From a virus: a stretch of DNA of 64,000 nt. The stretch lies in the UHGV virus genome UHGV-0129253; one strand, 5' to 3'. The notes beneath the pieces are model-generated. The model was not told the origin of the DNA. It made no database searches and saw nothing but the letters and a program-made list of their open reading frames with translations. Of this stretch, positions 2,738 through 62,937 are shown piece by piece; position 1 is the first letter of the stretch, and each line of letters begins with the position of its first letter. A program made the position numbers and the translations under genes.

Positions 2738-3399
2738 TGCATAAATCAGTAGCCGGTGAGTTTCAGAAGGAAGTCGATAATACTACCGTTCTATTGGACG
2801 ATATTTTAAGCATTCTCGCGCTTCTTGAGGCTGGCGATTGGTCAGAACATTGCACTAAAACGGAGTTAGGCGGTCGGCTTGAAAGAGAGATTACACGACT
2901 TATTGGTGATGCGCAGGAAGCTACAGTCACTAGTTATGAGTTAATCGCTGAAGCCTGGCGTTTGATGGATGGACAAGATCCTAAAACTAGCGATTGGCAT
3001 AGCAAGGCTTCGAAGTATTTAAATTCCGATAGGGTAGAAAAAGTTGATGATGTGAAACCGAAGCCAGTAGACCACGGTTTCCGCGATAACTGCGAATGCT
3101 CTAGTTGCCAGACCACGGCCCGTATTTGTTCCGAATTGACAGATAAGTCCAGCCTAATCTACGAAGTTAATGTAGGCGGTAATACATGGGTCGAATGCAC
3201 AAGAGCTGCATACGTAAGAGCAAAAGACAAGGGTGAATTAACCAGAGTTGTTGCCCATCACCCAAATAATGAGCTTAAAGATCACCAGATTAGAGAACTG
3301 GTGAACGAGTTGCGGGATATTGCGGTTCAGTACCACGGAACGCAGCAATTGCGGGAGAAAATTGCCAGAGCAGTGAACAACTCAGTCCGTAAAAAATAA
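2734..3399 (+). CDS. Hypothetical protein (Cys cluster CECSSCQ)
   Basis: 221-aa ORF, ATGA overlap with upstream gene. Confidence 0.5.
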   Translation: MMHKSVAGEFQKEVDNTTVLLDDILSILALLEAGDWSEHCTKTELGGRLEREITRLIGDAQEATVTSYELIAEAWRLMDGQDPKTSDWHSKASKYLNSDRVEKVDDVKPKPVDHGFRDNCECSSCQTTARICSELTDKSSLIYEVNVGGNTWVECTRAAYVRAKDKGELTRVVAHHPNNELKDHQIRELVNELRDIAVQYHGTQQLREKIARAVNNSVRKK

Positions 3400-3786
3400 G
3401 CAATAGTACGATAAAGAGGCCCCATGCTCTTGATGGGGCCTGTAGCAACTAGCGTTATGGACGCTGGTTTACGTACTCAATGATCGCTTTGATAATCGCG
3501 AACATCGGCGGCACGATTTTGAACAGTAAGTTAACCATAACAGGCCTCACTTAGTTTTATCGCGCCTAGCTGCAAATACCTTTGGGCTTGCCTTTGCAGT
3601 TGCAATATCTGTAGTCGCCAGATACTTACGGCACGATTTCGAGTTAAGGTAAGGTTTTAGAGTCACCAAAAACCTGGACTTAAATCTTCTTTGAGAACAA
3701 CGATGTTTAGTAAATGGTCATTATTACCTGGTATGACCACTCAACGTTTCTTGATGAATCCAGTACATTCGGTTAATCTTAATTCA

Positions 3787-4627: not shown

Positions 4628-5728
4628 TCACACTGCGCGGAATGCGATTTCGCCAGGTATTACTTCACCTTGCCAATACATTTGGGCAGCAACGCGATCT
4701 GCGAGGTCACGATAAATAGCCGTAAATTCACTATCTGGACGACTAATAACGGTTGGTGTTCCGTTATCCAGATCTTCACGAAGAGAGATATGAAGTGGCA
4801 TTTGGCCTAACAACTGCGTGTTGTATTTCTCGGCCAGTTTCTGTGCGCCACCGGTGCCAAAAATTGGCTCGTGATGACCGCAGTTACTGCAAATATGCAC
4901 ACTCATGTTTTCGACGATACCCAGTACCGGCACTTCGACTTTTTCGAACATCACAATGCCTTTCTTCGCATCGATCAGCGCGATGTCTTGCGGCGTAGTT
5001 ACCACAACCGCACCAGTTACAGGAATGTTCTGCGCCAGCGTCAACTGAATATCACCAGTGCCCGGCGGCATATCGAGAACGAGATAGTCCAGATCAGGCC
5101 ATATAGTTTCCTGCAACATCTGCATCAGCGCCTTGCTGGCCATCGGTCCACGCCACACCATTGCATTGTCGTCGGTGACCAGATAACCAATAGAGTTGGT
5201 TGCCAGGCCATGAGACATGATAGGTGCCATGTGAGTACCGTCAGGTGAGGTTGGACGTTGGTTTTCCGCGCCCAGCATGGTTGGAATTGATGGACCATAG
5301 ATATCGGCATCCAAAATACCAACTTTCGCACCTTCAGCAGCCAACGCCAGTGCCAGGTTTACCGCCGTGGAGGATTTACCCACGCCGCCCTTGCCTGAGC
5401 TGACGGCGATAATGTTCTTAACGCCATTAATGCCTGGTTGGTTTTTGACGCGCTTAAGCGTGGCAATGTTGTACGACAGCTTCCAGTCAATAGCCTTTGC
5501 GCCAGTGATACGGAGCAGATCACCACTACATTGCTCTTTCAGGTCTTCAAAAGGCTTATTCCACACGAAAGGCATGATTAGTTCGACATGCAGTGTGTCA
5601 TCCATCAACGCAACATGGTGTAACGCTTTAAGCGTAGTCAGGTTGTGTTTCAGGGTTGGGTGCTGAAAATTAGCCAGCGTACCGGCTACCATTGCTCTCA
5701 GGGCATCCGGCGATTTGGACTCGCTCAT
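4628..5728 (-). CDS. mrp: Iron-sulfur cluster carrier ATPase Mrp/ApbC
   Basis: 366 aa, P-loop SSGKGGVGKS, near-full-length match to enterobacterial Mrp; divergent from metG as in E. coli. Confidence 0.9.
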   Translation of the reverse strand: MSESKSPDALRAMVAGTLANFQHPTLKHNLTTLKALHHVALMDDTLHVELIMPFVWNKPFEDLKEQCSGDLLRITGAKAIDWKLSYNIATLKRVKNQPGINGVKNIIAVSSGKGGVGKSSTAVNLALALAAEGAKVGILDADIYGPSIPTMLGAENQRPTSPDGTHMAPIMSHGLATNSIGYLVTDDNAMVWRGPMASKALMQMLQETIWPDLDYLVLDMPPGTGDIQLTLAQNIPVTGAVVVTTPQDIALIDAKKGIVMFEKVEVPVLGIVENMSVHICSNCGHHEPIFGTGGAQKLAEKYNTQLLGQMPLHISLREDLDNGTPTVISRPDSEFTAIYRDLADRVAAQMYWQGEVIPGEIAFRAV

Positions 5729-5885: not shown

Positions 5886-7919
5886 ATGACCCAAGTCGCG
5901 AAGAAAATTCTGGTGACGTGCGCGCTGCCGTACGCTAACGGCTCAATCCACCTCGGCCATATGCTGGAGCACATCCAGGCTGATGTCTGGGTTCGTTACC
6001 AGCGAATGCGCGGCCACGAGGTTAATTTCATCTGTGCCGACGATGCCCACGGTACGCCGATCATGCTGAAAGCGCAGCAGCTTGGTATCACACCGGAGCA
6101 GATGATTGGCGAAATGAGTCAGGAACACCAGACTGATTTCGCAGGCTTTAACATCAGCTATGACAACTATCACTCGACGCACAGCGAAGAGAACCGCCAG
6201 CTGTCTGAGCTTATCTATACTCGCCTGAAAGAGAACGGTTTTATTAAAAACCGCACTATCTCTCAGTTGTACGATCCGGAAAAAGGCATGTTCCTGCCGG
6301 ACCGTTTTGTAAAAGGCACCTGCCCGAAATGTAAAGCGCCAGATCAATACGGCGATAACTGTGAAGTCTGCGGCGCAACATATAGCCCGACTGAATTGAT
6401 CGAGCCGAAATCGGTGGTTTCTGGCGCTACCCCGGTAATGCGTGATTCTGAACACTTCTTCTTTGATCTACCCTCTTTCAGCGAAATGTTGCAGGCATGG
6501 ACCCGCAGCGGCGCGTTGCAGGAGCAGGTGGCGAACAAAATGCAGGAATGGTTTGAATCCGGCCTGCAACAGTGGGATATCTCCCGCGATGCGCCTTACT
6601 TCGGTTTTGAAATTCCGAACGCGCCGGGCAAATATTTCTACGTCTGGCTGGACGCGCCGATTGGCTACATGGGTTCCTTCAAGAATCTGTGCGACAAGCG
6701 CGGCGATACCACCAGCTTCGATGAATACTGGAAGAAAGACTCCACCGCCGAGCTGTACCACTTCATCGGTAAAGATATTGTTTACTTCCACAGCCTGTTC
6801 TGGCCTGCCATGCTGGAAGGCAGCAACTTCCGCAAGCCGACCAACCTGTTTGTTCACGGCTATGTGACGGTGAACGGCGCGAAGATGTCCAAGTCTCGCG
6901 GCACCTTTATTAAAGCCAGCACCTGGCTGAATCATTTTGACGCTGACAGCCTGCGTTACTACTACACTGCGAAACTCTCTTCGCGCATTGATGATATCGA
7001 TCTCAACCTGGAGGATTTCGTTCAGCGCGTGAATGCCGATATCGTGAACAAAGTGGTTAACCTGGCCTCTCGTAATGCAGGCTTTATCAACAAGCGTTTT
7101 GACGGCGTGCTGGCAGGCGAACTGGCTGACCCGCAACTGTACAAAACCTTTACTGATGCCGCTGAAGTGATTGGCGAAGCATGGGAAAGCCGCGAATTTG
7201 GTAAAGCTATCCGTGAAATCATGGCACTGGCTGACCTGGCTAACCGCTATGTCGATGAACAGGCTCCGTGGGTGGTGGCGAAGCAGGAAGGTCGCGATGC
7301 CGATCTGCAGGCGATTTGCTCTATGGGCATTAACCTGTTCCGCGTGCTGATGACTTACCTGAAACCGGTACTGCCGAAACTGACTGAACGTGCAGAAGCA
7401 TTCCTGAATACAGAACTGACCTGGGATGGTATCCAGCAACCGCTGCTGGGCCATAAAGTGAATCCGTTCAAGGCACTGTATAACCGTATCGATATGAAAC
7501 AGGTGGAAGCACTGGTGGAAGCATCCAAAGAAGAAGTGAAAGCCACAGCCGCACCGGTAACTGGCCCACTGGCTGACGACCCGATTCAGGAAACCATCAC
7601 CTTTGACGACTTCGCCAAAGTTGACCTGCGTGTGGCGCTGATTGAAAACGCGGAGTTTGTTGAAGGTTCTGACAAACTGTTGCGCCTGACGCTGGATCTC
7701 GGCGGTGAAAAACGCAATGTCTTCTCAGGCATCCGTTCTGCTTATCCAGACCCACAGGCACTGATTGGTCGTCACACCATTATGGTGGCTAACCTGGCTC
7801 CGCGTAAAATGCGCTTCGGTATCTCCGAAGGCATGGTGATGGCTGCTGGCCCCGGCGGGAAAGATATCTTCCTGTTAAGCCCGGATGTCGGTGCTAAACC
7901 TGGCCACCAGGTTAAGTAA
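5886..7919 (+). CDS. metG: Methionine--tRNA ligase
   Basis: 677 aa from ATG 5886 ([25 protein letters not shown]...); HIGH-type and KMSKS motifs; the ORF track's 5757 start is an upstream artefact. Confidence 0.95.
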
Positions 7920-52287: not shown

Positions 52288-52539
52288 ATGCTAGGCAGCC
52301 TGATGACAAAGCTAAAAGTTGCTTTGATTACGCTGGCTGCCGTTCTTTTCGTTCTTGTCGGCGCTTACACGATGGGCGGGAATGCGGCGCGACGAGCAAT
52401 GGAAGAGAAGGCAAAACAGGAAGACAGAAAACGACTTCAAAACACAGTGAAAGTGGTGAATGAGACGAACAGTGAAATACGTCAGAAAGATGCTTCTGCC
52501 ATTCATCGTGAGCTGCATGATAAGTGGATGCGTCATTAA
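52288..52539 (+). CDS. i-spanin (Rz-like): N-terminal TM plus charged coiled coil
   Basis: MLGSLMTKLKVALITLAAVLFVLVGAY then EEKAKQEDRKRLQ. Confidence 0.55.
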   Translation: MLGSLMTKLKVALITLAAVLFVLVGAYTMGGNAARRAMEEKAKQEDRKRLQNTVKVVNETNSEIRQKDASAIHRELHDKWMRH

Positions 52540-52675
52540 GCCACAAACCACTAGCGTGTTGTTCTGCGATGGCGCTGAACCTATTTATATCAGCAATGAC
52601 GATGTAATGACCGAAGAAACCGAACGCCAAATCCTTTTTCACAATACGATGGGAGAGAGAGTTTGCGGTTGGTGA
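52490..52675 (+). CDS. o-spanin (Rz1-like) lipoprotein, +1 frame overlapping the i-spanin 3' end
   Basis: Signal MLLPFIVSCMISGC with lipobox ISGC; overlaps 52490-52539. Confidence 0.55.
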   Translation: MLLPFIVSCMISGCVIKPQTTSVLFCDGAEPIYISNDDVMTEETERQILFHNTMGERVCGW

Positions 52676-52707
52676 TGTCGAAGTTCCCCTCAAATGAGGG
52701 GGACACA

Positions 52708-53229
52708 TTATTCTTCGAACAATTTTTCGATAGATTTTGTTGGATAGAACAAAGAACGATCGTTGTTACCAACCAGCTGGATAAAGCCCAAACTTTTATA
52801 AAACGCCCTGGCTTTATCGTTCAACGCCTCAACGAAAAGCCCATGAATGCCTACCGCAAGAGATGCATTGTACACAACACGCATTGCGTGAGTTACAAGC
52901 ATTGAGCCAAGCCCCTGACCTTGAAGAGATTTGTCCAAAGCCAGTCTGCCTAAAGTGATACTTGGGACATTCCGATAAGGCACTTTCTTTTGCTGACTCT
53001 TTGAAGGTAAGGTTTCTTTCTCAAAGCAGCTGCCTGACAAAGTGTAATAACCTAATACCTTTGGTATTTCTTCTTTAGTGCAAAGCACATAAGCGCGAAG
53101 AATTTTTCCTTCATGCTGTCTTTTTAAGTGGTTGGTCAAAAATGCGTTTAGTGACTCTTCGCCGCAATCAAAACCGTTTAGATCATAATCGTTCTCTCCA
53201 GAGAAAATCTCGATCGTCGTATTGCTCAC
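52708..53229 (-). CDS. GNAT-family toxin (TacT/AtaT/KacT-like type II TA toxin)
   Basis: 173 aa GNAT; paired with upstream DUF1778-type antitoxin. Confidence 0.75.
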   Translation of the reverse strand: MSNTTIEIFSGENDYDLNGFDCGEESLNAFLTNHLKRQHEGKILRAYVLCTKEEIPKVLGYYTLSGSCFEKETLPSKSQQKKVPYRNVPSITLGRLALDKSLQGQGLGSMLVTHAMRVVYNASLAVGIHGLFVEALNDKARAFYKSLGFIQLVGNNDRSLFYPTKSIEKLFEE

Positions 53230-53236
53230 GAGTAAA

Positions 53237-53506
53237 TTACTCCATGCTTTTCAGACGATTGGCAGCTCGTTTCAGCTTGTCGTTCGGTGCCGGAGGATTG
53301 CTTATAGCATCCATAACCAGATTCCAGGACTCTTCACTTAGAACCAGTCTACGGTGTTGCTCTATCACCTTCACGGCACGTTCGGATGCACTGCTAACCA
53401 TGAACTGGGTAATGCTCTGGTTAGACATTGCGGCAGCTTCCTCGATGATGCTTTTATCGTCATCGGTTAATCTCAAATCGATGCGCTGCTTTTTCAGTGC
53501 GGACAT
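53237..53506 (-). CDS. DUF1778 / RHH antitoxin (TacA/AtaR-like)
   Basis: 89 aa, 7 nt upstream of the GNAT gene on the same strand. Confidence 0.75.
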   Translation of the reverse strand: MSALKKQRIDLRLTDDDKSIIEEAAAMSNQSITQFMVSSASERAVKVIEQHRRLVLSEESWNLVMDAISNPPAPNDKLKRAANRLKSME

Positions 53507-53775
53507 GTGTACCCCCTGATGGCCGGTGATGTAGGAAGGCCATCATTGCTCTCTATTTAAACTGAGTTTTCGACTCAAAGGTTATTTAACTGGGCTATAG
53601 CCCATTGCGTATGTGTCATCAAATTGTGTACGGCAATTTACCGTACTCGTAATATAGAGATGATTGTCACTTTTTTCAACAGACAAATGAAAACAGTTAC
53701 TAGCAATAGGCAATAACAACCTACTAAATAACCTTTACACCGCAGCCGTAGGCATTTAGGCTATATCACATATAA

Positions 53776-53791
53776 GAAAACAAGTTGTTTC
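53776..53791. promoter_or_regulatory. Early-type palindrome GAAAACAAGTTGTTTC upstream of the ParA-like gene
   Basis: 35 nt upstream of ATG 53826, followed by GATAAT. Confidence 0.4.
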
Positions 53792-53825
53792 AGACGATAA
53801 TTATATACGCAAAGGGAACTCTCCA

Positions 53826-54494
53826 ATGACCAAGATCTTTGTGGTTGGCGGCACAAAGGGCGGGCCTGGCAAATCCACTGTTGCCCAGCAAATTGCCGTT
53901 TGCCTGAAAGTCAAAAAGAAGAAGAAGGTTTATATCACTGATATAGATATTCAGCGCACGACAACAAGCTGGTGTGAAGACCGTAGACAGAACGAAGACC
54001 TTGAGCTGATTCCTTTTGCATACGTTCAGGATGACATCATTAAGCACCTAAAATCGCTTCAGGGTAGAGCTGAGTTTGTAGTGGTAGATGCTGGTGGCTT
54101 TGACTCCGAAATTCAGCGACAAGCGATGCTGATGGCCGACGTTATCATTATCCCGCTTCGTCCCAAGCGTCGTGATTTGAAATCTCTGCGTGACATTGAT
54201 CCTATTATCGACAATGTTCGTAATGTAAACGATAAAGTGAAGGTCCGCGCGGTCATGAACCAGTGCCCGGCTTTGCCATCACAAGTGTCTCGCATTCTGG
54301 CGGCTAAAGAGATTGTTGAGACGTTTGGCATCGAGTCTGCGCCAGTCAATTTATATAACCGCAACGTCTATGATGATGCGGAAGAGTCTGGTCGTTCTAT
54401 CTTTGAAATGACCGGTAGCGAGCGCGACAAAAAGGCGGAAGCCGAGTTTGAAGAATTTGTAGATTATCTGTTGAGTCTGGAGGAAGAAGAATAA
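53826..54494 (+). CDS. ParA/ParF-type partition ATPase
   Basis: Deviant Walker A GGTKGGPGKST; 222 aa. Confidence 0.8.
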   Translation: MTKIFVVGGTKGGPGKSTVAQQIAVCLKVKKKKKVYITDIDIQRTTTSWCEDRRQNEDLELIPFAYVQDDIIKHLKSLQGRAEFVVVDAGGFDSEIQRQAMLMADVIIIPLRPKRRDLKSLRDIDPIIDNVRNVNDKVKVRAVMNQCPALPSQVSRILAAKEIVETFGIESAPVNLYNRNVYDDAEESGRSIFEMTGSERDKKAEAEFEEFVDYLLSLEEEE

Positions 54495-54853
54495 TGTCCA
54501 TGAAAATGGGTGACCTAGCAAAGCGCAAAGAGCCTGATGCACCGGCCAAGAACACAACTCCTTTGCGCCAACCAGTCAGACCACAGGGACGCCCGACTCG
54601 TGGCAAAGAGAAAATTAAAAGCCGCACAATGTCACTGGAGGACGAATACTTCGAACTGCTGGAAATGATGAAGTTCATCCCTCGTTTCGAGAAGTTCACC
54701 CGTTCTGACGTGATTCGCGCAGCCATTTTCCATCTGGCAGAGAAGTCACCGCAGGAAATCGAGGACATCGTGAAATTGAATGAGGCGATCACCGCTGCCG
54801 ATGTCACGATGCGTACCGATGAAATCAAACGAGAGTTGATGAAGAAAGGTTAA
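54494..54853 (+). CDS. Putative partition partner (ParG/ParB-like, basic N-terminus)
   Basis: 119 aa, start overlapping ParA-like stop. Confidence 0.5.
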   Translation: MSMKMGDLAKRKEPDAPAKNTTPLRQPVRPQGRPTRGKEKIKSRTMSLEDEYFELLEMMKFIPRFEKFTRSDVIRAAIFHLAEKSPQEIEDIVKLNEAITAADVTMRTDEIKRELMKKG

Positions 54854-54905: not shown

Positions 54906-55673
54906 TTATGCCGCGCTAACACTATGTTCAGTCCTAACCACCCCAACCTTCACAAAAGGGCTACCGTAGCTTGGTGGCTTCTTGATTAATTTGCCTACAT
55001 ACAGTTTTCTAATATGCTCATCGGCTATTCTGCCAACAAATTCATAACGTTTTGTGTCGGGGCCAAGAGCTATATCCCTTGTAAAGTACTGCTGAGAACC
55101 GGCTTTGACCCAGCATTCAATCTGATAAACTTCCATTATTAGCCCACCATATGTAGCGTAGGCATATTTGAGATTCTCGTCTCTTGGAACCTTTGCCCAT
55201 ACGCCACGCGTAGCTTCATATAATGCCAGAGCGGACATTCCTGACTTGTAGGTGCTGTTTAGCAGGAAGGCAAGACCGGCGTGCTCAGGAGCAATTTCAG
55301 TTTCCTCTTGCAGCACTAAGTGATGGTAGGCGTCCAGTGATATTCTGCCCATCATGGAACCACTTCCTCGTACCTTATTCGTAAGCTCTCCGACCCCCAT
55401 AAGGTCGATGCATGTCGCCTCAACAAGTTTGGCTGTGGTTTCATCCATACCATGACGAAGAATATCTATGCCTAATTTTTTATTAGCCAAAAGTTCTTTG
55501 ATCCGCATGGATTTGGGAGAGTCATCGGGATACTTGATGTGATCGAGACAACGAGTCGATTTGCCTTTTCCTATGTAAAACGGTCTTTTCATCTTGTCTT
55601 CTGTATCATAGAGGCAGTAAACATAGTATTTAGCCTTATCCAATGATCTCGCGTATACCGATAAATCGTCCAT
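54906..55673 (-). CDS. GIY-YIG nuclease-domain protein
   Basis: N-terminal YYVYCLYD...RPFYIGKGKSTR motif; 255 aa. Confidence 0.6.
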   Translation of the reverse strand: MDDLSVYARSLDKAKYYVYCLYDTEDKMKRPFYIGKGKSTRCLDHIKYPDDSPKSMRIKELLANKKLGIDILRHGMDETTAKLVEATCIDLMGVGELTNKVRGSGSMMGRISLDAYHHLVLQEETEIAPEHAGLAFLLNSTYKSGMSALALYEATRGVWAKVPRDENLKYAYATYGGLIMEVYQIECWVKAGSQQYFTRDIALGPDTKRYEFVGRIADEHIRKLYVGKLIKKPPSYGSPFVKVGVVRTEHSVSAA

Positions 55674-62731: not shown

Positions 62732-62937
62732 TTTTATGTATAAGATGACTTTGTTTTCGTTGAGACGCGACTGTTTGAACTTAAATACAAGTGCAAACGA
62801 AGAAGTCTATCTGGCAGTAGCCTAATAAGCCAAACACCAGCGAGGTCAGTTTCCAGCCTCGTTACCGAAATGGGACACACTGAGCGAGTGTGATTGCAGA
62901 ACGCAGGAGGGAACATTCATGTTCCCTCCGATGAAGT

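What the first reader, a model, noticed from the sequence alone, without database searches (positions are those of the whole stretch)
52708..53506. GNAT/DUF1778 type II toxin-antitoxin pair next to the partition genes
A DUF1778 RHH antitoxin lies directly upstream of a GNAT toxin of the TacT/AtaT/KacT type (aminoacyl-tRNA acetylating toxins), ~300 bp from a ParF-like ATPase gene. This is the classic layout of a plasmid addiction module and supports episomal maintenance. The upstream region carries a palindrome (TACGG-CAATTTAC-CGTA) that may be the autoregulatory operator.
Basis: partly seen in the sequence, partly recalled or inferred. Interest (0 to 1): 0.5.

Follow-up and report, generated by a model that had tools for sequence, protein, structure and literature searches.

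The report
AtaRT/KacAT-type toxin-antitoxin on a phage-plasmid
This is an intact but ordinary toxin-antitoxin gene pair of the well-studied AtaRT/KacAT family, with its own promoter and repressor-binding site, carried as an add-on cassette beside the partition genes of an SSU5-like E. coli phage-plasmid, where it most likely penalises loss of the element.

Summary
On the minus strand, an 89-aa DUF1778/TacA antitoxin (53237-53506) sits 7 nt upstream of a 173-aa GNAT toxin (52708-53229).

- **Family:** the toxin hits AtaT and KacT crystal chains over its full length at E about 1e-78. It keeps catalytic Y144 and the acetyl-CoA residue G108. The antitoxin hits KacA and AtaR at E about 1e-41 and keeps DNA-contact residues R8, D10 and R12.
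- **Operator:** It has the half-sites and spacing of the crystallised KacAT operator and starts 4 nt after a sigma-70-like -10. It is perfect upstream of the antitoxin in 40 of 43 species-level loci, with none in 125 kb of control sequence.
- **Setting:** the window is an E. coli SSU5-like phage-plasmid. The module is a 1.06-kb cassette (52673-53728) in a variable slot between the Rz/Rz1 lysis genes and a ParF-like parA.
- **Selection and expression:** dN/dS is 0.04-0.10, and the closely related phage Cyrano homologue is transcribed in lysogens.

Post-segregational killing is inferred from the family, not shown here. This is a new member of a known kind, of low interest. One side observation is a covarying hairpin just before the antitoxin ribosome-binding site.

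The parts
53237..53506 (-). Antitoxin gene (89 aa). It has an N-terminal ribbon-helix-helix DNA-binding part and a C-terminal toxin-binding part, and is an AtaR/KacA orthologue.
   Evidence: Pfam TacA1/DUF1778 E=3.5e-26. KacA 5zgn E=2.5e-41 and AtaR 6ajm E=5e-40. R8, D10 and R12 are invariant in alignment A2; these are the KacA DNA-contact residues (PMC6698736). dN/dS is 0.04-0.10.
52708..53229 (-). GNAT toxin gene (173 aa, GTG start), an AtaT/KacT orthologue. A GGAG ribosome-binding site lies inside the last codons of the antitoxin gene.
   Evidence: Acetyltransf_1 E=1.6e-8. AtaT 6gts E=1.5e-78 and KacT 5xun E=2e-75, full length. G108, Y144, Y85, R95, F30 and L27 are conserved and are functionally required in AtaT (PMC7595197). 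dN/dS is 0.06. RefSeq uses the same coordinates in the identical locus of NZ_MT773674.1.
53628..53646 (.). Operator palindrome GTACGG-CAATTTA-CCGTAC, the predicted binding site for two antitoxin RHH dimers of the T2A4 complex.
   Evidence: It occurs once in the window and in 0 of 100 shuffles. It has the half-sites and spacing of the crystallised KacAT operator (PMC6698736). It is present upstream of the antitoxin in all 7 first loci, including chromosomal ataRT, in 40 of 43 species-level loci with 0 hits in 125 kb of control, and in 47 of 50 viral contigs.
53651..53679 (-). Sigma-70-like promoter of the operon: -35 TTGAAA (53679-53674), 17-nt spacer, -10 TATATT (53656-53651). The predicted transcription start is near 53644, inside the operator.
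   Evidence: 10 of 12 consensus matches. A -10-like hexamer precedes the operator in most homologous loci (14-nt contexts). The KacAT palindrome is reported to span the transcription start site (PMC6698736). The transcription start here is inferred, not mapped.
53507..53644 (-). 5' leader of about 138 nt. It contains a hairpin at 53517-53545 (TGATGGCC-13 nt-GGCCATCA) immediately 5' of the ribosome-binding site GGGGG (53512-53516).
   Evidence: Fold (z = -1.9 for the whole leader). The leader is homologous in about 10 loci. Covariance model R1 finds the hairpin before the antitoxin ATG in 11 loci at E<=4e-8. Six of its 10 pairs show changes on both sides, with covariation 0.354 against 0.257 in shuffles (0 of 500 reach it). 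Its function is unknown. There is no Rfam match.
52683..52704 (.). GC-rich hairpin between the convergent Rz1 and toxin genes, a likely terminator separating late lysis transcription from the toxin-antitoxin operon.
   Evidence: Terminator-like site. An equivalent CCCCTC/GAGGGG hairpin is present in all phage-plasmid versions. It is flanked by A and T runs in the Enterobacter and Citrobacter alleles.
52673..53728 (.). Extent of the accessory cassette (terminator hairpin, toxin, antitoxin, leader, operator, promoter) relative to phage-plasmids that lack it.
   Evidence: Homology to SSU5 and PhiR41_1 stops at about 52657-52672 and resumes at 53729-53730. SSU5, PhiR41_1 and pGD31-F25 carry two unrelated plus-strand ORFs there, and pA4 carries one unrelated minus-strand ORF.
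53826..54853 (+). Context: partition operon, made of ParF-like ATPase (53826-54494) and a 119-aa partner (54494-54853). It is transcribed divergently from the toxin-antitoxin pair.
   Evidence: ParA_partition 115.7 bits, E=1.9e-33, below the curated cut-off of 180 bits, plus MipZ, AAA_31 and CbiA matches. Best solved relatives are ParF 4dzz and ParA 5u1g, both E=1.2e-10. The 119-aa protein has no Pfam hit and belongs to PHROG 5111, of unknown function.
52288..52675 (+). Context: the end of the phage lysis cassette, Rz (52288-52539) and the overlapping Rz1 lipoprotein (52460-52675). These are convergent with the toxin gene.
   Evidence: ORFs. They are annotated as Rz and Rz1 spanins in phage Cyrano and SSU5.

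Best explanation
**What it is.** This is a complete, selectively maintained type II toxin-antitoxin operon of the AtaRT/KacAT branch of the GNAT/DUF1778 family. It is carried as a self-contained 1.06-kb cassette in an SSU5-like E. coli phage-plasmid.

**Shown by sequence and comparison.** The operon order is promoter, operator, leader of about 138 nt, antitoxin, 7-nt gap, GTG-initiated toxin. All residues needed in AtaT for acetyl-CoA binding and catalysis are present, as are most residues needed for tRNA acceptor-stem binding. The antitoxin keeps the three residues that read the operator in KacA. The operator matches the crystallised one and overlaps the predicted transcription start.

**Inferred from the family.**
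[quoted passage not shown] For clade A toxins such as AtaT and KacT the targets in vivo are Gly-tRNA and several hydrophobic aminoacyl-tRNAs, and Met-tRNAfMet in vitro.
- The antitoxin C-terminus wraps the toxin, blocking acetyl-CoA binding and dimerisation.
- A T-A2-A2-T heterohexamer sits on the two half-sites and represses the promoter, with de-repression when toxin exceeds antitoxin.
- Lon degrades free antitoxin.

**Biological role (inferred, about 60-65% likely to be the main one).** Daughter cells that lose the low-copy prophage-plasmid stop making antitoxin and are arrested by the longer-lived toxin. The module would therefore back up the adjacent ParF-type partition system.
For: - Gene anatomy and profile matches.
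- Full-length similarity to AtaT and KacT at E about 1e-78, and to KacA and AtaR at E about 1e-41.
- G108, Y144, Y85, R95, F30, L27, S76, K77, K81, K82 and K165 are conserved. These are shown to matter in AtaT (PMC7595197).
- R8, D10 and R12 are conserved in the antitoxin (PMC6698736).
- The operator is identical in half-sites and spacing to the KacAT crystal operator. It lies 4 nt after a -10 element. It is unique in the window and conserved in 40 of 43 genomes and 47 of 50 viral contigs.
- Purifying selection: dN/dS 0.04-0.10.
- The homologue in phage Cyrano/pLF82 (the region is 94% identical in DNA) is transcribed in lysogens at 35-fold (toxin) and 60-fold (antitoxin) above the prophage background, and the element is present at about 5.5 copies per cell (PMC9928086).
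- Precedent for plasmid stabilisation by this family: GmvAT on Shigella pINV, which is Lon-dependent (PMC6519299).
- Substrates of clade A toxins (PMC9177977).
- The module is in the same slot, flanked by parA and Rz, in 46 of 50 viral contigs and in 144 plasmid records.
Against: - Nothing here tests toxicity, neutralisation, antitoxin lability or plasmid stabilisation.
- Many SSU5-like phage-plasmids lack the module and carry unrelated genes in the slot. About 20% of matching plasmid records have it. It is therefore dispensable for maintenance.
- At about 5 copies per cell and with a partition system, plasmid loss may be rare, which weakens selection for killing of segregants.
- GmvAT stabilised its plasmid mainly at 21 degrees C, not 37 degrees C.
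- About 30% of complete E. coli genomes carry chromosomal ataRT (1627 chromosomal places in 5426 genomes). Its antitoxin is 75% identical and its operator half-sites are identical, so it could blunt addiction.
- A native GTG start made one related toxin (KacT4) non-toxic on overexpression (PMC9431474).
Confidence: 0.8

Rival explanations
1. The module's main benefit is defence or competition rather than addiction. On infection by another phage, or entry of a competing phage-plasmid, host or antitoxin synthesis is shut off, the toxin is freed and translation stops (abortive infection or exclusion).
For: - It sits in a variable accessory slot of the kind that holds defence cargo.
- The slot on the other side of the par operon holds a PD-T4-3 anti-phage protein (PADLOC E=1.3e-23).
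- It is expressed during lysogeny like a moron.
- Toxin alleles in the same slot have diverged much further (62-99% identity) than the antitoxin (84-100%) or ParA (83-100%).
Against: - Neither protein matches any PADLOC defence model.
- A full-text search found no paper whose title or abstract reports a GNAT/DUF1778 pair acting in phage defence; the papers were not read.
- The only demonstrated element-level role in the family is plasmid stabilisation.
- The two roles are not mutually exclusive.
Confidence: 0.13
2. It acts as a host-benefiting stress or persistence switch: a moron that slows growth and raises antibiotic tolerance of the lysogen, with no role in keeping the element.
For: KacT and TacT are reported to induce tolerance or persistence when expressed (PMC6698736 introduction and model; PMC9431474). 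The module is transcribed in lysogens.
Against: The persistence roles of type II modules rest largely on overexpression. The module's location on a mobile low-copy replicon next to par genes fits element-level selection better. Nothing here tests this reading.
Confidence: 0.05
3. It is a decayed or non-toxic remnant, or an ordinary acetyltransferase with an unrelated small regulator.
For: The toxin starts with GTG. The NCBIfam matches to named acetyltransferases (RimI and others) are weak and below cut-off.
Against: - Both ORFs are intact and under strong purifying selection.
- Every catalytic and cofactor residue is kept.
- The toxin is 69-72% identical to toxins of proven activity.
- The operator and DNA-reading residues are kept.
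- The pair is maintained together in 50 of 50 viral contigs.
Confidence: 0.02

Closest known systems
AtaR-AtaT of E. coli O157:H7 (chromosomal; PDB 6ajm, 6gts, 7chd)
   Same: Same gene order and sizes. The toxin is 69% and the antitoxin 75% identical. G108 and Y144 are kept and most tRNA-contact residues are identical. The operator has the same GTACGG-N7-CCGTAC form directly after the -10.
   Different: - The ataRT operator is 26 nt from the ATG, with no structured leader. Here it is 121 nt away, with a hairpin before the ribosome-binding site.
- Three contact residues differ: R40 to E, K79 to Q, and A26 to S.
- This copy is on a phage-plasmid; ataRT lies between panM and livJ on the chromosome.
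- The DNA is only about 65% identical.
KacA-KacT of Klebsiella pneumoniae (PDB 5xun, 5zgn with operator DNA)
   Same: The antitoxin's best hit is KacA (E=2.5e-41), and R8, D10, R12, M65 and I68 are kept. The operator half-sites and 7-bp AT-rich spacer match the crystallised 27-mer. Regulation by conditional cooperativity through a T-A2-A2-T hexamer is expected by homology.
   Different: KacA R77 is K77 here and Q70 is N70. kacAT is chromosomal with a short leader (30 nt in K. pneumoniae ATCC 13883). Stoichiometry and cooperativity are untested for this allele.
GmvA-GmvT on Shigella pINV
   Same: It is a GNAT/DUF1778 pair on a low-copy plasmid that also has partition systems, and it is shown to stabilise the plasmid in a Lon-dependent way (PMC6519299). 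It is the functional precedent for the addiction reading.
   Different: GmvT belongs to the Gly-tRNA-specific clade D, not clade A (PMC9177977). Its stabilising effect is temperature-dependent (21 degrees C). No sequence comparison was made here.
Phd-Doc of phage-plasmid P1
   Same: It is a type II toxin-antitoxin module that secures inheritance of a plasmid prophage, autoregulated by conditional cooperativity (cited in PMC6698736). This is the same ecological logic.
   Different: The protein families are unrelated (Fic-type kinase toxin, Phd antitoxin), and it is a core feature of P1. This module is an optional cassette.

Membership tests
GNAT/DUF1778 (TacAT/AtaRT/KacAT) type II toxin-antitoxin | Two-gene operon, antitoxin first, with the genes adjacent | tested here: met
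   The antitoxin (53237-53506) is followed after 7 nt by the toxin (52708-53229) on the same strand.
GNAT/DUF1778 (TacAT/AtaRT/KacAT) type II toxin-antitoxin | The antitoxin carries the DUF1778/TacA ribbon-helix-helix domain | tested here: met
   PF08681 E=3.5e-26, covering 79 of 80 profile positions.
GNAT/DUF1778 (TacAT/AtaRT/KacAT) type II toxin-antitoxin | The toxin is a GNAT with the acetyl-CoA-binding glycine and the catalytic tyrosine | tested here: met
   GNAT profiles pass their cut-offs. G108 and Y144 are invariant in alignment A1; their roles are described in PMC7595197.
AtaT/KacT branch (clade A of Bikmetov et al. 2022) | Closest relatives are AtaT and KacT rather than TacT, ItaT or AtaT2 | tested here: met
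   AtaT and KacT chains score E 1e-78 to 2e-75, and the next group of GNAT toxin structures scores E 4e-21 or weaker. No tree was built.
AtaT/KacT branch (clade A of Bikmetov et al. 2022) | GTACGG-N7-CCGTAC operator overlapping the promoter, read by R8, D10 and R12 of the antitoxin | tested here: met
GNAT/DUF1778 (TacAT/AtaRT/KacAT) type II toxin-antitoxin | The toxin arrests growth and the cognate antitoxin neutralises it | not testable with these tools
   Needs expression assays.
GNAT/DUF1778 (TacAT/AtaRT/KacAT) type II toxin-antitoxin | The toxin acetylates the amino group of aminoacyl-tRNA | not testable with these tools
   Needs LC/MS or in-vitro acetylation. It is inferred from 69-72% identity to AtaT and KacT.
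GNAT/DUF1778 (TacAT/AtaRT/KacAT) type II toxin-antitoxin | T2A4 heterohexamer on DNA | not tested
   No complex was modelled. It is inferred from homology to 5zgn and 6ajm.
Plasmid addiction (post-segregational killing) module | Encoded on a low-copy extrachromosomal replicon | tested here: met
   The region is 100% identical to E. coli plasmids NZ_MT773674.1 and NZ_CP061531.1. The window is an SSU5-like phage-plasmid with repA and parA in its close relative. Cyrano is present at about 5.5 copies per cell.
Plasmid addiction (post-segregational killing) module | The antitoxin is less stable than the toxin (protease-labile) | not testable with these tools
   Lon dependence is shown only for GmvAT.
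Plasmid addiction (post-segregational killing) module | Presence lowers the frequency of plasmid-free segregants | not testable with these tools
   Needs a plasmid-loss assay.
Catalogued anti-phage defence systems (PADLOC) | The protein matches a model of a known or candidate defence system | tested here: not met
   There is no PADLOC hit for the toxin or the antitoxin at E<=0.01, whereas the neighbouring gene 54906-55673 hits PD-T4-3.

The most novel reading that the evidence does not exclude
The plasmid and phage-plasmid versions of AtaRT/KacAT-type modules may carry an extra, undescribed layer of control. This would be a leader of about 120 nt whose covarying hairpin abuts the antitoxin ribosome-binding site. 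Its conserved UUCCU-containing loop could pair with that site and tune antitoxin translation or mRNA stability. In SSU5-like phage-plasmids the module, fixed in one slot while its toxin diverges quickly, may serve exclusion of competing phages or phage-plasmids as well as addiction.
Probability: 0.2. Interest if true: 0.45.

Novelty: new member of a known kind. Interest (0 to 1): 0.2.

Why it matters
SSU5-like phage-plasmids are common in clinical E. coli, Shigella, Salmonella and Klebsiella and sometimes carry ESBL genes. A close relative of this window, with an identical toxin-antitoxin region, carries ISEcp1-blaCTX-M-199. A working addiction module would help explain why such elements persist without selection and resist curing.

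The module itself adds no new biology. It is a plain orthologue of two crystallised systems, already annotated as KacT-like in phage Cyrano. The practical value of this work is a precise map of promoter, operator, leader and cassette borders, which makes the stability, cross-talk and defence questions directly testable.

Tried and rejected
- **Rfam:** a scan of 52500-53900 at E<=1 gave no known RNA family in the leader.
- **PADLOC:** no defence-system match for either protein.
- **12-bp inverted repeat:** a perfect repeat, AAAGGTTATTTA / TAAATAACCTTT (53577-53588 and 53725-53736), brackets the promoter and touches the cassette border. It is not kept in the 90%-identical Cyrano/L007 lineage, so I dropped it as a functional site.
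- **Leader peptide:** a 14-codon ORF in the leader is not conserved in Cyrano (read from the sequences).
- **Longer antitoxin start:** Cyrano annotates a 101-aa antitoxin. That extension is out of frame in this window, and the conserved N-terminus MSALKKQRIDL matches residue 1 of the crystal chains. The start at 53506 stands.
- **Window identity:** I first assumed the window was plasmid pM-199-4197. Direct comparison showed it is a close relative (about 99% over most of its length) with rearranged stretches, and it lacks the ISEcp1-blaCTX-M-199 insertion.
- **MAFFT alignment of the leader hairpin:** it put the window one base out of register. I used a covariance-model alignment instead.
- **Literature:** the paper on CTX-M-199 carriage and one on phage-like plasmids said nothing about this module.
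- **metG link:** I considered a link between the element's metG cargo and a Met-tRNA-acetylating toxin. The two do not strictly co-occur: NZ_CP031294.1 has metG but not the module.
Full report
**1. The observation**

The interval 52708-53506 holds two adjacent minus-strand ORFs. One is an 89-aa protein (53237-53506, ATG start). After a 7-nt gap comes a 173-aa protein (52708-53229, GTG start). A GGAG ribosome-binding site for the second gene lies in the last codons of the first.

- The first protein matches Pfam TacA1/DUF1778 at E=3.5e-26.
- The second matches the GNAT profiles Acetyltransf_1, _7 and _10 above their cut-offs.
- Against solved structures, the toxin aligns over its full length with AtaT (6gts, E=1.5e-78; 6ajm; 7chd) and KacT (5xun, 5zgn; E about 1e-75). 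The next GNAT toxins score only 4e-21 or weaker.
- The antitoxin aligns with KacA (E=2.5e-41) and AtaR (E=5e-40).

The neighbouring gene at 53826-54494 is a small ParA. Its best solved relatives are ParF of TP228 (4dzz) and a 214-aa ParA (5u1g), both at E=1.2e-10. It lies 319 bp away and is divergently transcribed.

**2. Are the proteins likely active?**

I aligned the toxin with chromosomal AtaT and four plasmid homologues.

- Kept: G108 (acetyl-CoA binding), Y144 (catalysis), Y85, R95, F30, L27 and L136, and the acceptor-stem contacts H34, R37, S76, K77, S78, K81, K82 and K165. Mutating these weakens or abolishes AtaT toxicity (PMC7595197).
- Changed: R40 to E, K79 to Q, R71 to K, and A26 to S.

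The antitoxin keeps R8, D10 and R12, which read the operator bases in the KacAT-DNA crystal and are needed for binding (PMC6698736). It also keeps M65 and I68 of the toxin interface. KacA R77 is K here.

dN/dS between the window and the 90%-identical sister lineage is 0.06 for the toxin and 0.04 for the antitoxin. It is 0.08-0.10 for the antitoxin against more distant alleles. Both genes are under purifying selection.

**3. Promoter and operator**

The exact pattern GTACGG-N7-CCGTAC occurs once in the window and in none of 100 shuffles.

The 27-bp duplex co-crystallised with KacA4KacT2 is AAATGTACGGTTATTAACCGTACATGA. It has the same two half-sites separated by a 7-bp AT-rich spacer, and that palindrome spans the kacAT transcription start (PMC6698736).

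In the window a sigma-70-like promoter lies on the minus strand: TTGAAA, 17 nt, TATATT (53679-53651; 10 of 12 consensus matches). It ends 4 nt before the palindrome, so the predicted start falls inside the operator.

Conservation of the motif:
- It is present directly after a -10-like hexamer upstream of the antitoxin gene in all seven loci first examined. These include chromosomal ataRT of O157:H7 and plasmid copies whose flanks are otherwise unalignable.
- In one-genome-per-species loci fetched with the antitoxin alignment, 40 of 43 have a perfect copy within 300 nt upstream. There is no perfect or one-mismatch copy in the remaining 125 kb. The spacer varies, and the distance to the ATG ranges from 14 to 165 nt in this set.
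- In viral contigs, 47 of 50 have a perfect copy.

The operator assignment is therefore well supported by homology and conservation, though binding has not been measured for this allele.

**4. Genomic setting**

The window is an E. coli SSU5-like phage-plasmid.
- The 2.6 kb around the module is 100% identical to plasmid pM-199-4197 (NZ_MT773674.1) and 94% identical to phage Cyrano (pLF82). The 1,150-bp module query is also 100% identical to NZ_CP061531.1.
- Over most of its length the window is about 99% identical to pM-199-4197, but it is not that plasmid. It lacks the ISEcp1-blaCTX-M-199 insertion.
- Upstream lie tail-fibre, holin, endolysin and Rz/Rz1 genes. Downstream lie parA, a 119-aa partner, then helicase, ligase and other replication genes.

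Homology to SSU5 and PhiR41_1 stops at about 52657-52672 (the end of Rz1) and resumes at 53729-53730. The module with its terminator hairpin, leader, operator and promoter is therefore a 1.06-kb cassette.

Other phage-plasmids carry different content in this slot:
- two unrelated plus-strand ORFs (SSU5, PhiR41_1, pGD31-F25);
- one unrelated minus-strand ORF (K. pneumoniae pA4);
- other alleles of the same toxin-antitoxin family (Enterobacter, 71% DNA identity; Citrobacter, toxin 63% and antitoxin 89% identical).

About 144 plasmid records carry the full module, out of more than 700 that match the surrounding backbone. Of 50 IMG/VR viral contigs encoding a relative of the toxin, all have the antitoxin and 46 have parA and Rz on either side in the same layout.

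A GC-rich hairpin (52683-52704) separates the convergent Rz1 and toxin genes. It is structurally conserved in all phage-plasmid versions.

**5. How it most likely works**

By homology (inferred):
- The toxin dimer acetylates charged tRNAs. Clade A toxins AtaT and KacT modify Gly-tRNA and several hydrophobic aminoacyl-tRNAs in vivo (PMC9177977; PMC7595197).
- The antitoxin C-terminus blocks acetyl-CoA binding and toxin dimerisation.
- A T-A2-A2-T hexamer represses the promoter with conditional cooperativity (PMC6698736).

Two published results bear on this module. The Cyrano homologue is transcribed in lysogens well above the prophage background, and Cyrano is kept at about 5.5 copies per cell (PMC9928086). 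GmvAT, a member of the same superfamily, stabilises Shigella pINV in a Lon-dependent way (PMC6519299).

Addiction of the prophage-plasmid is thus the best-supported role. I put it at about 60-65% as the main role.

Weaknesses of the addiction reading:
- The module is optional within the phage-plasmid group.
- GmvAT worked mainly at 21 degrees C.
- About 30% of complete E. coli genomes carry chromosomal ataRT. Its antitoxin is 75% identical and its operator half-sites are the same, so it could cross-repress or neutralise. Cross-neutralisation between chromosomal and plasmid GNAT/RHH pairs has been seen once in Klebsiella (PMC9431474).

**6. Rivals**

- **Defence or exclusion role.** This is suggested by the variable slot, the PD-T4-3 gene on the other side of par, and the faster divergence of the toxin than of the antitoxin or ParA. 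There is no PADLOC match, and a full-text search turned up no paper whose title or abstract reports it.
- **Host persistence role.** This cannot be excluded.
- **Decayed or non-toxic gene.** This is very unlikely given selection and residue conservation.

**7. Comparison with known systems and novelty**

The module meets every sequence-level defining feature of the AtaRT/KacAT branch. The biochemical features cannot be tested here. It differs from the two crystallised systems in three ways: its replicon, a few tRNA-contact residues, and a long leader.

It is already annotated as a KacT-type toxin in Cyrano. It is a new, uncharacterised member of a known kind, and interest is low.

**8. Side observation**

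In loci with long leaders, a hairpin lies immediately 5' of the antitoxin ribosome-binding site. In the window it is TGATGGCC-13 nt-GGCCATCA at 53517-53545.

A covariance model built from ten such leaders finds it before the antitoxin ATG in 11 loci at E<=4e-8. On the model-fitted alignment, 6 of 10 pairs show changes on both sides. Covariation is 0.354 against 0.257 in shuffles (0 of 500 reach it), and slid controls are far lower.

That alignment is fitted to the structure and the sequences are related, so this is suggestive rather than proof. The function is unknown. The chromosomal ataRT and kacAT loci, with leaders of 26-30 nt, lack it.

Noticed in passing
window 53507-53644 (minus strand), hairpin 53517-53545; also L001, L005, L007, L013, L018, L020, L022, L024, L033, L042: There is a conserved leader of about 120 nt between the operator and the antitoxin ATG. 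A hairpin with covarying stems abuts the ribosome-binding site, and several loci share the loop UUCCUACAUCAC. The chromosomal ataRT and kacAT loci lack it, and it has no Rfam family.
   Followed up: partly
window 52673-53728 versus L002, L003, L006, L055, L056, L057: The slot between Rz1 and parA is a cargo hotspot in SSU5-like phage-plasmids. It holds several diverged alleles of this toxin-antitoxin family or unrelated genes of unknown function. Across alleles in the same slot, the toxin diverges much faster (62-99% identity) than the antitoxin (84-100%) or ParA (83-100%).
   Followed up: partly
window 54906-55673 (minus strand): The gene just after the par operon matches the PD-T4-3 anti-phage defence protein (PADLOC E=1.3e-23; Pfam LEM-3-like GIY-YIG). 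Other phage-plasmids carry DUF2971 or P-loop NTPase genes at this position, so it is a second variable slot flanking par.
   Followed up: partly
window 4628-5728 (minus strand, apbC) and about 5886-7919 (plus strand, metG): The phage-plasmid carries a second copy of methionyl-tRNA synthetase with its chromosomal neighbour apbC. About 200 E. coli-type phage-plasmid records share this cargo, and it is 80-95% identical (mostly 90-95%) to the chromosomal locus. It does not strictly co-occur with the toxin-antitoxin module. A link to a toxin that can acetylate Met-tRNAfMet is pure speculation.
   Followed up: partly
window 53577-53588 and 53725-53736: A perfect 12-bp inverted repeat (AAAGGTTATTTA / TAAATAACCTTT) brackets the promoter-operator region, and its right arm sits on the cassette-backbone junction. 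It is not conserved in the Cyrano lineage.
   Followed up: yes
L006 about 3290-3460, and IMG/VR loci L088-L106: In the Enterobacter- and Klebsiella-type alleles the leader contains tandem CTGAAAA and TCGAAAAACTGAAAA repeats. The copy number varies, so the operator-to-ATG distance ranges from 121 to 222 nt. These could be protein-binding iterons or a partition site lying in the divergent parA-antitoxin intergenic region.
   Followed up: no
window 54494-54853 (plus strand); L001 5194-5553: The 119-aa gene overlapping the parA stop codon is annotated 'RelE/ParE putative toxin' in phage Cyrano. It has no Pfam hit, and its only NCBIfam match (aCcr1_fam, 21 bits against a 60-bit cut-off) is weak. 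It sits where a ParG-like centromere-binding partner is expected, so the toxin label looks unsupported.
   Followed up: partly
window about 62786-62790: Compared with its close relative pM-199-4197, the window lacks the ISEcp1-blaCTX-M-199 insertion of about 3 kb. The window is therefore the unloaded version of an ESBL-carrying phage-plasmid backbone.
   Followed up: partly
window 53227-53229: The toxin uses a GTG start codon. In Klebsiella, KacT4 toxins almost always start with GUG and are non-toxic on overexpression until the start is changed to AUG (PMC9431474). The weak start may set a low toxin:antitoxin ratio.
   Followed up: no
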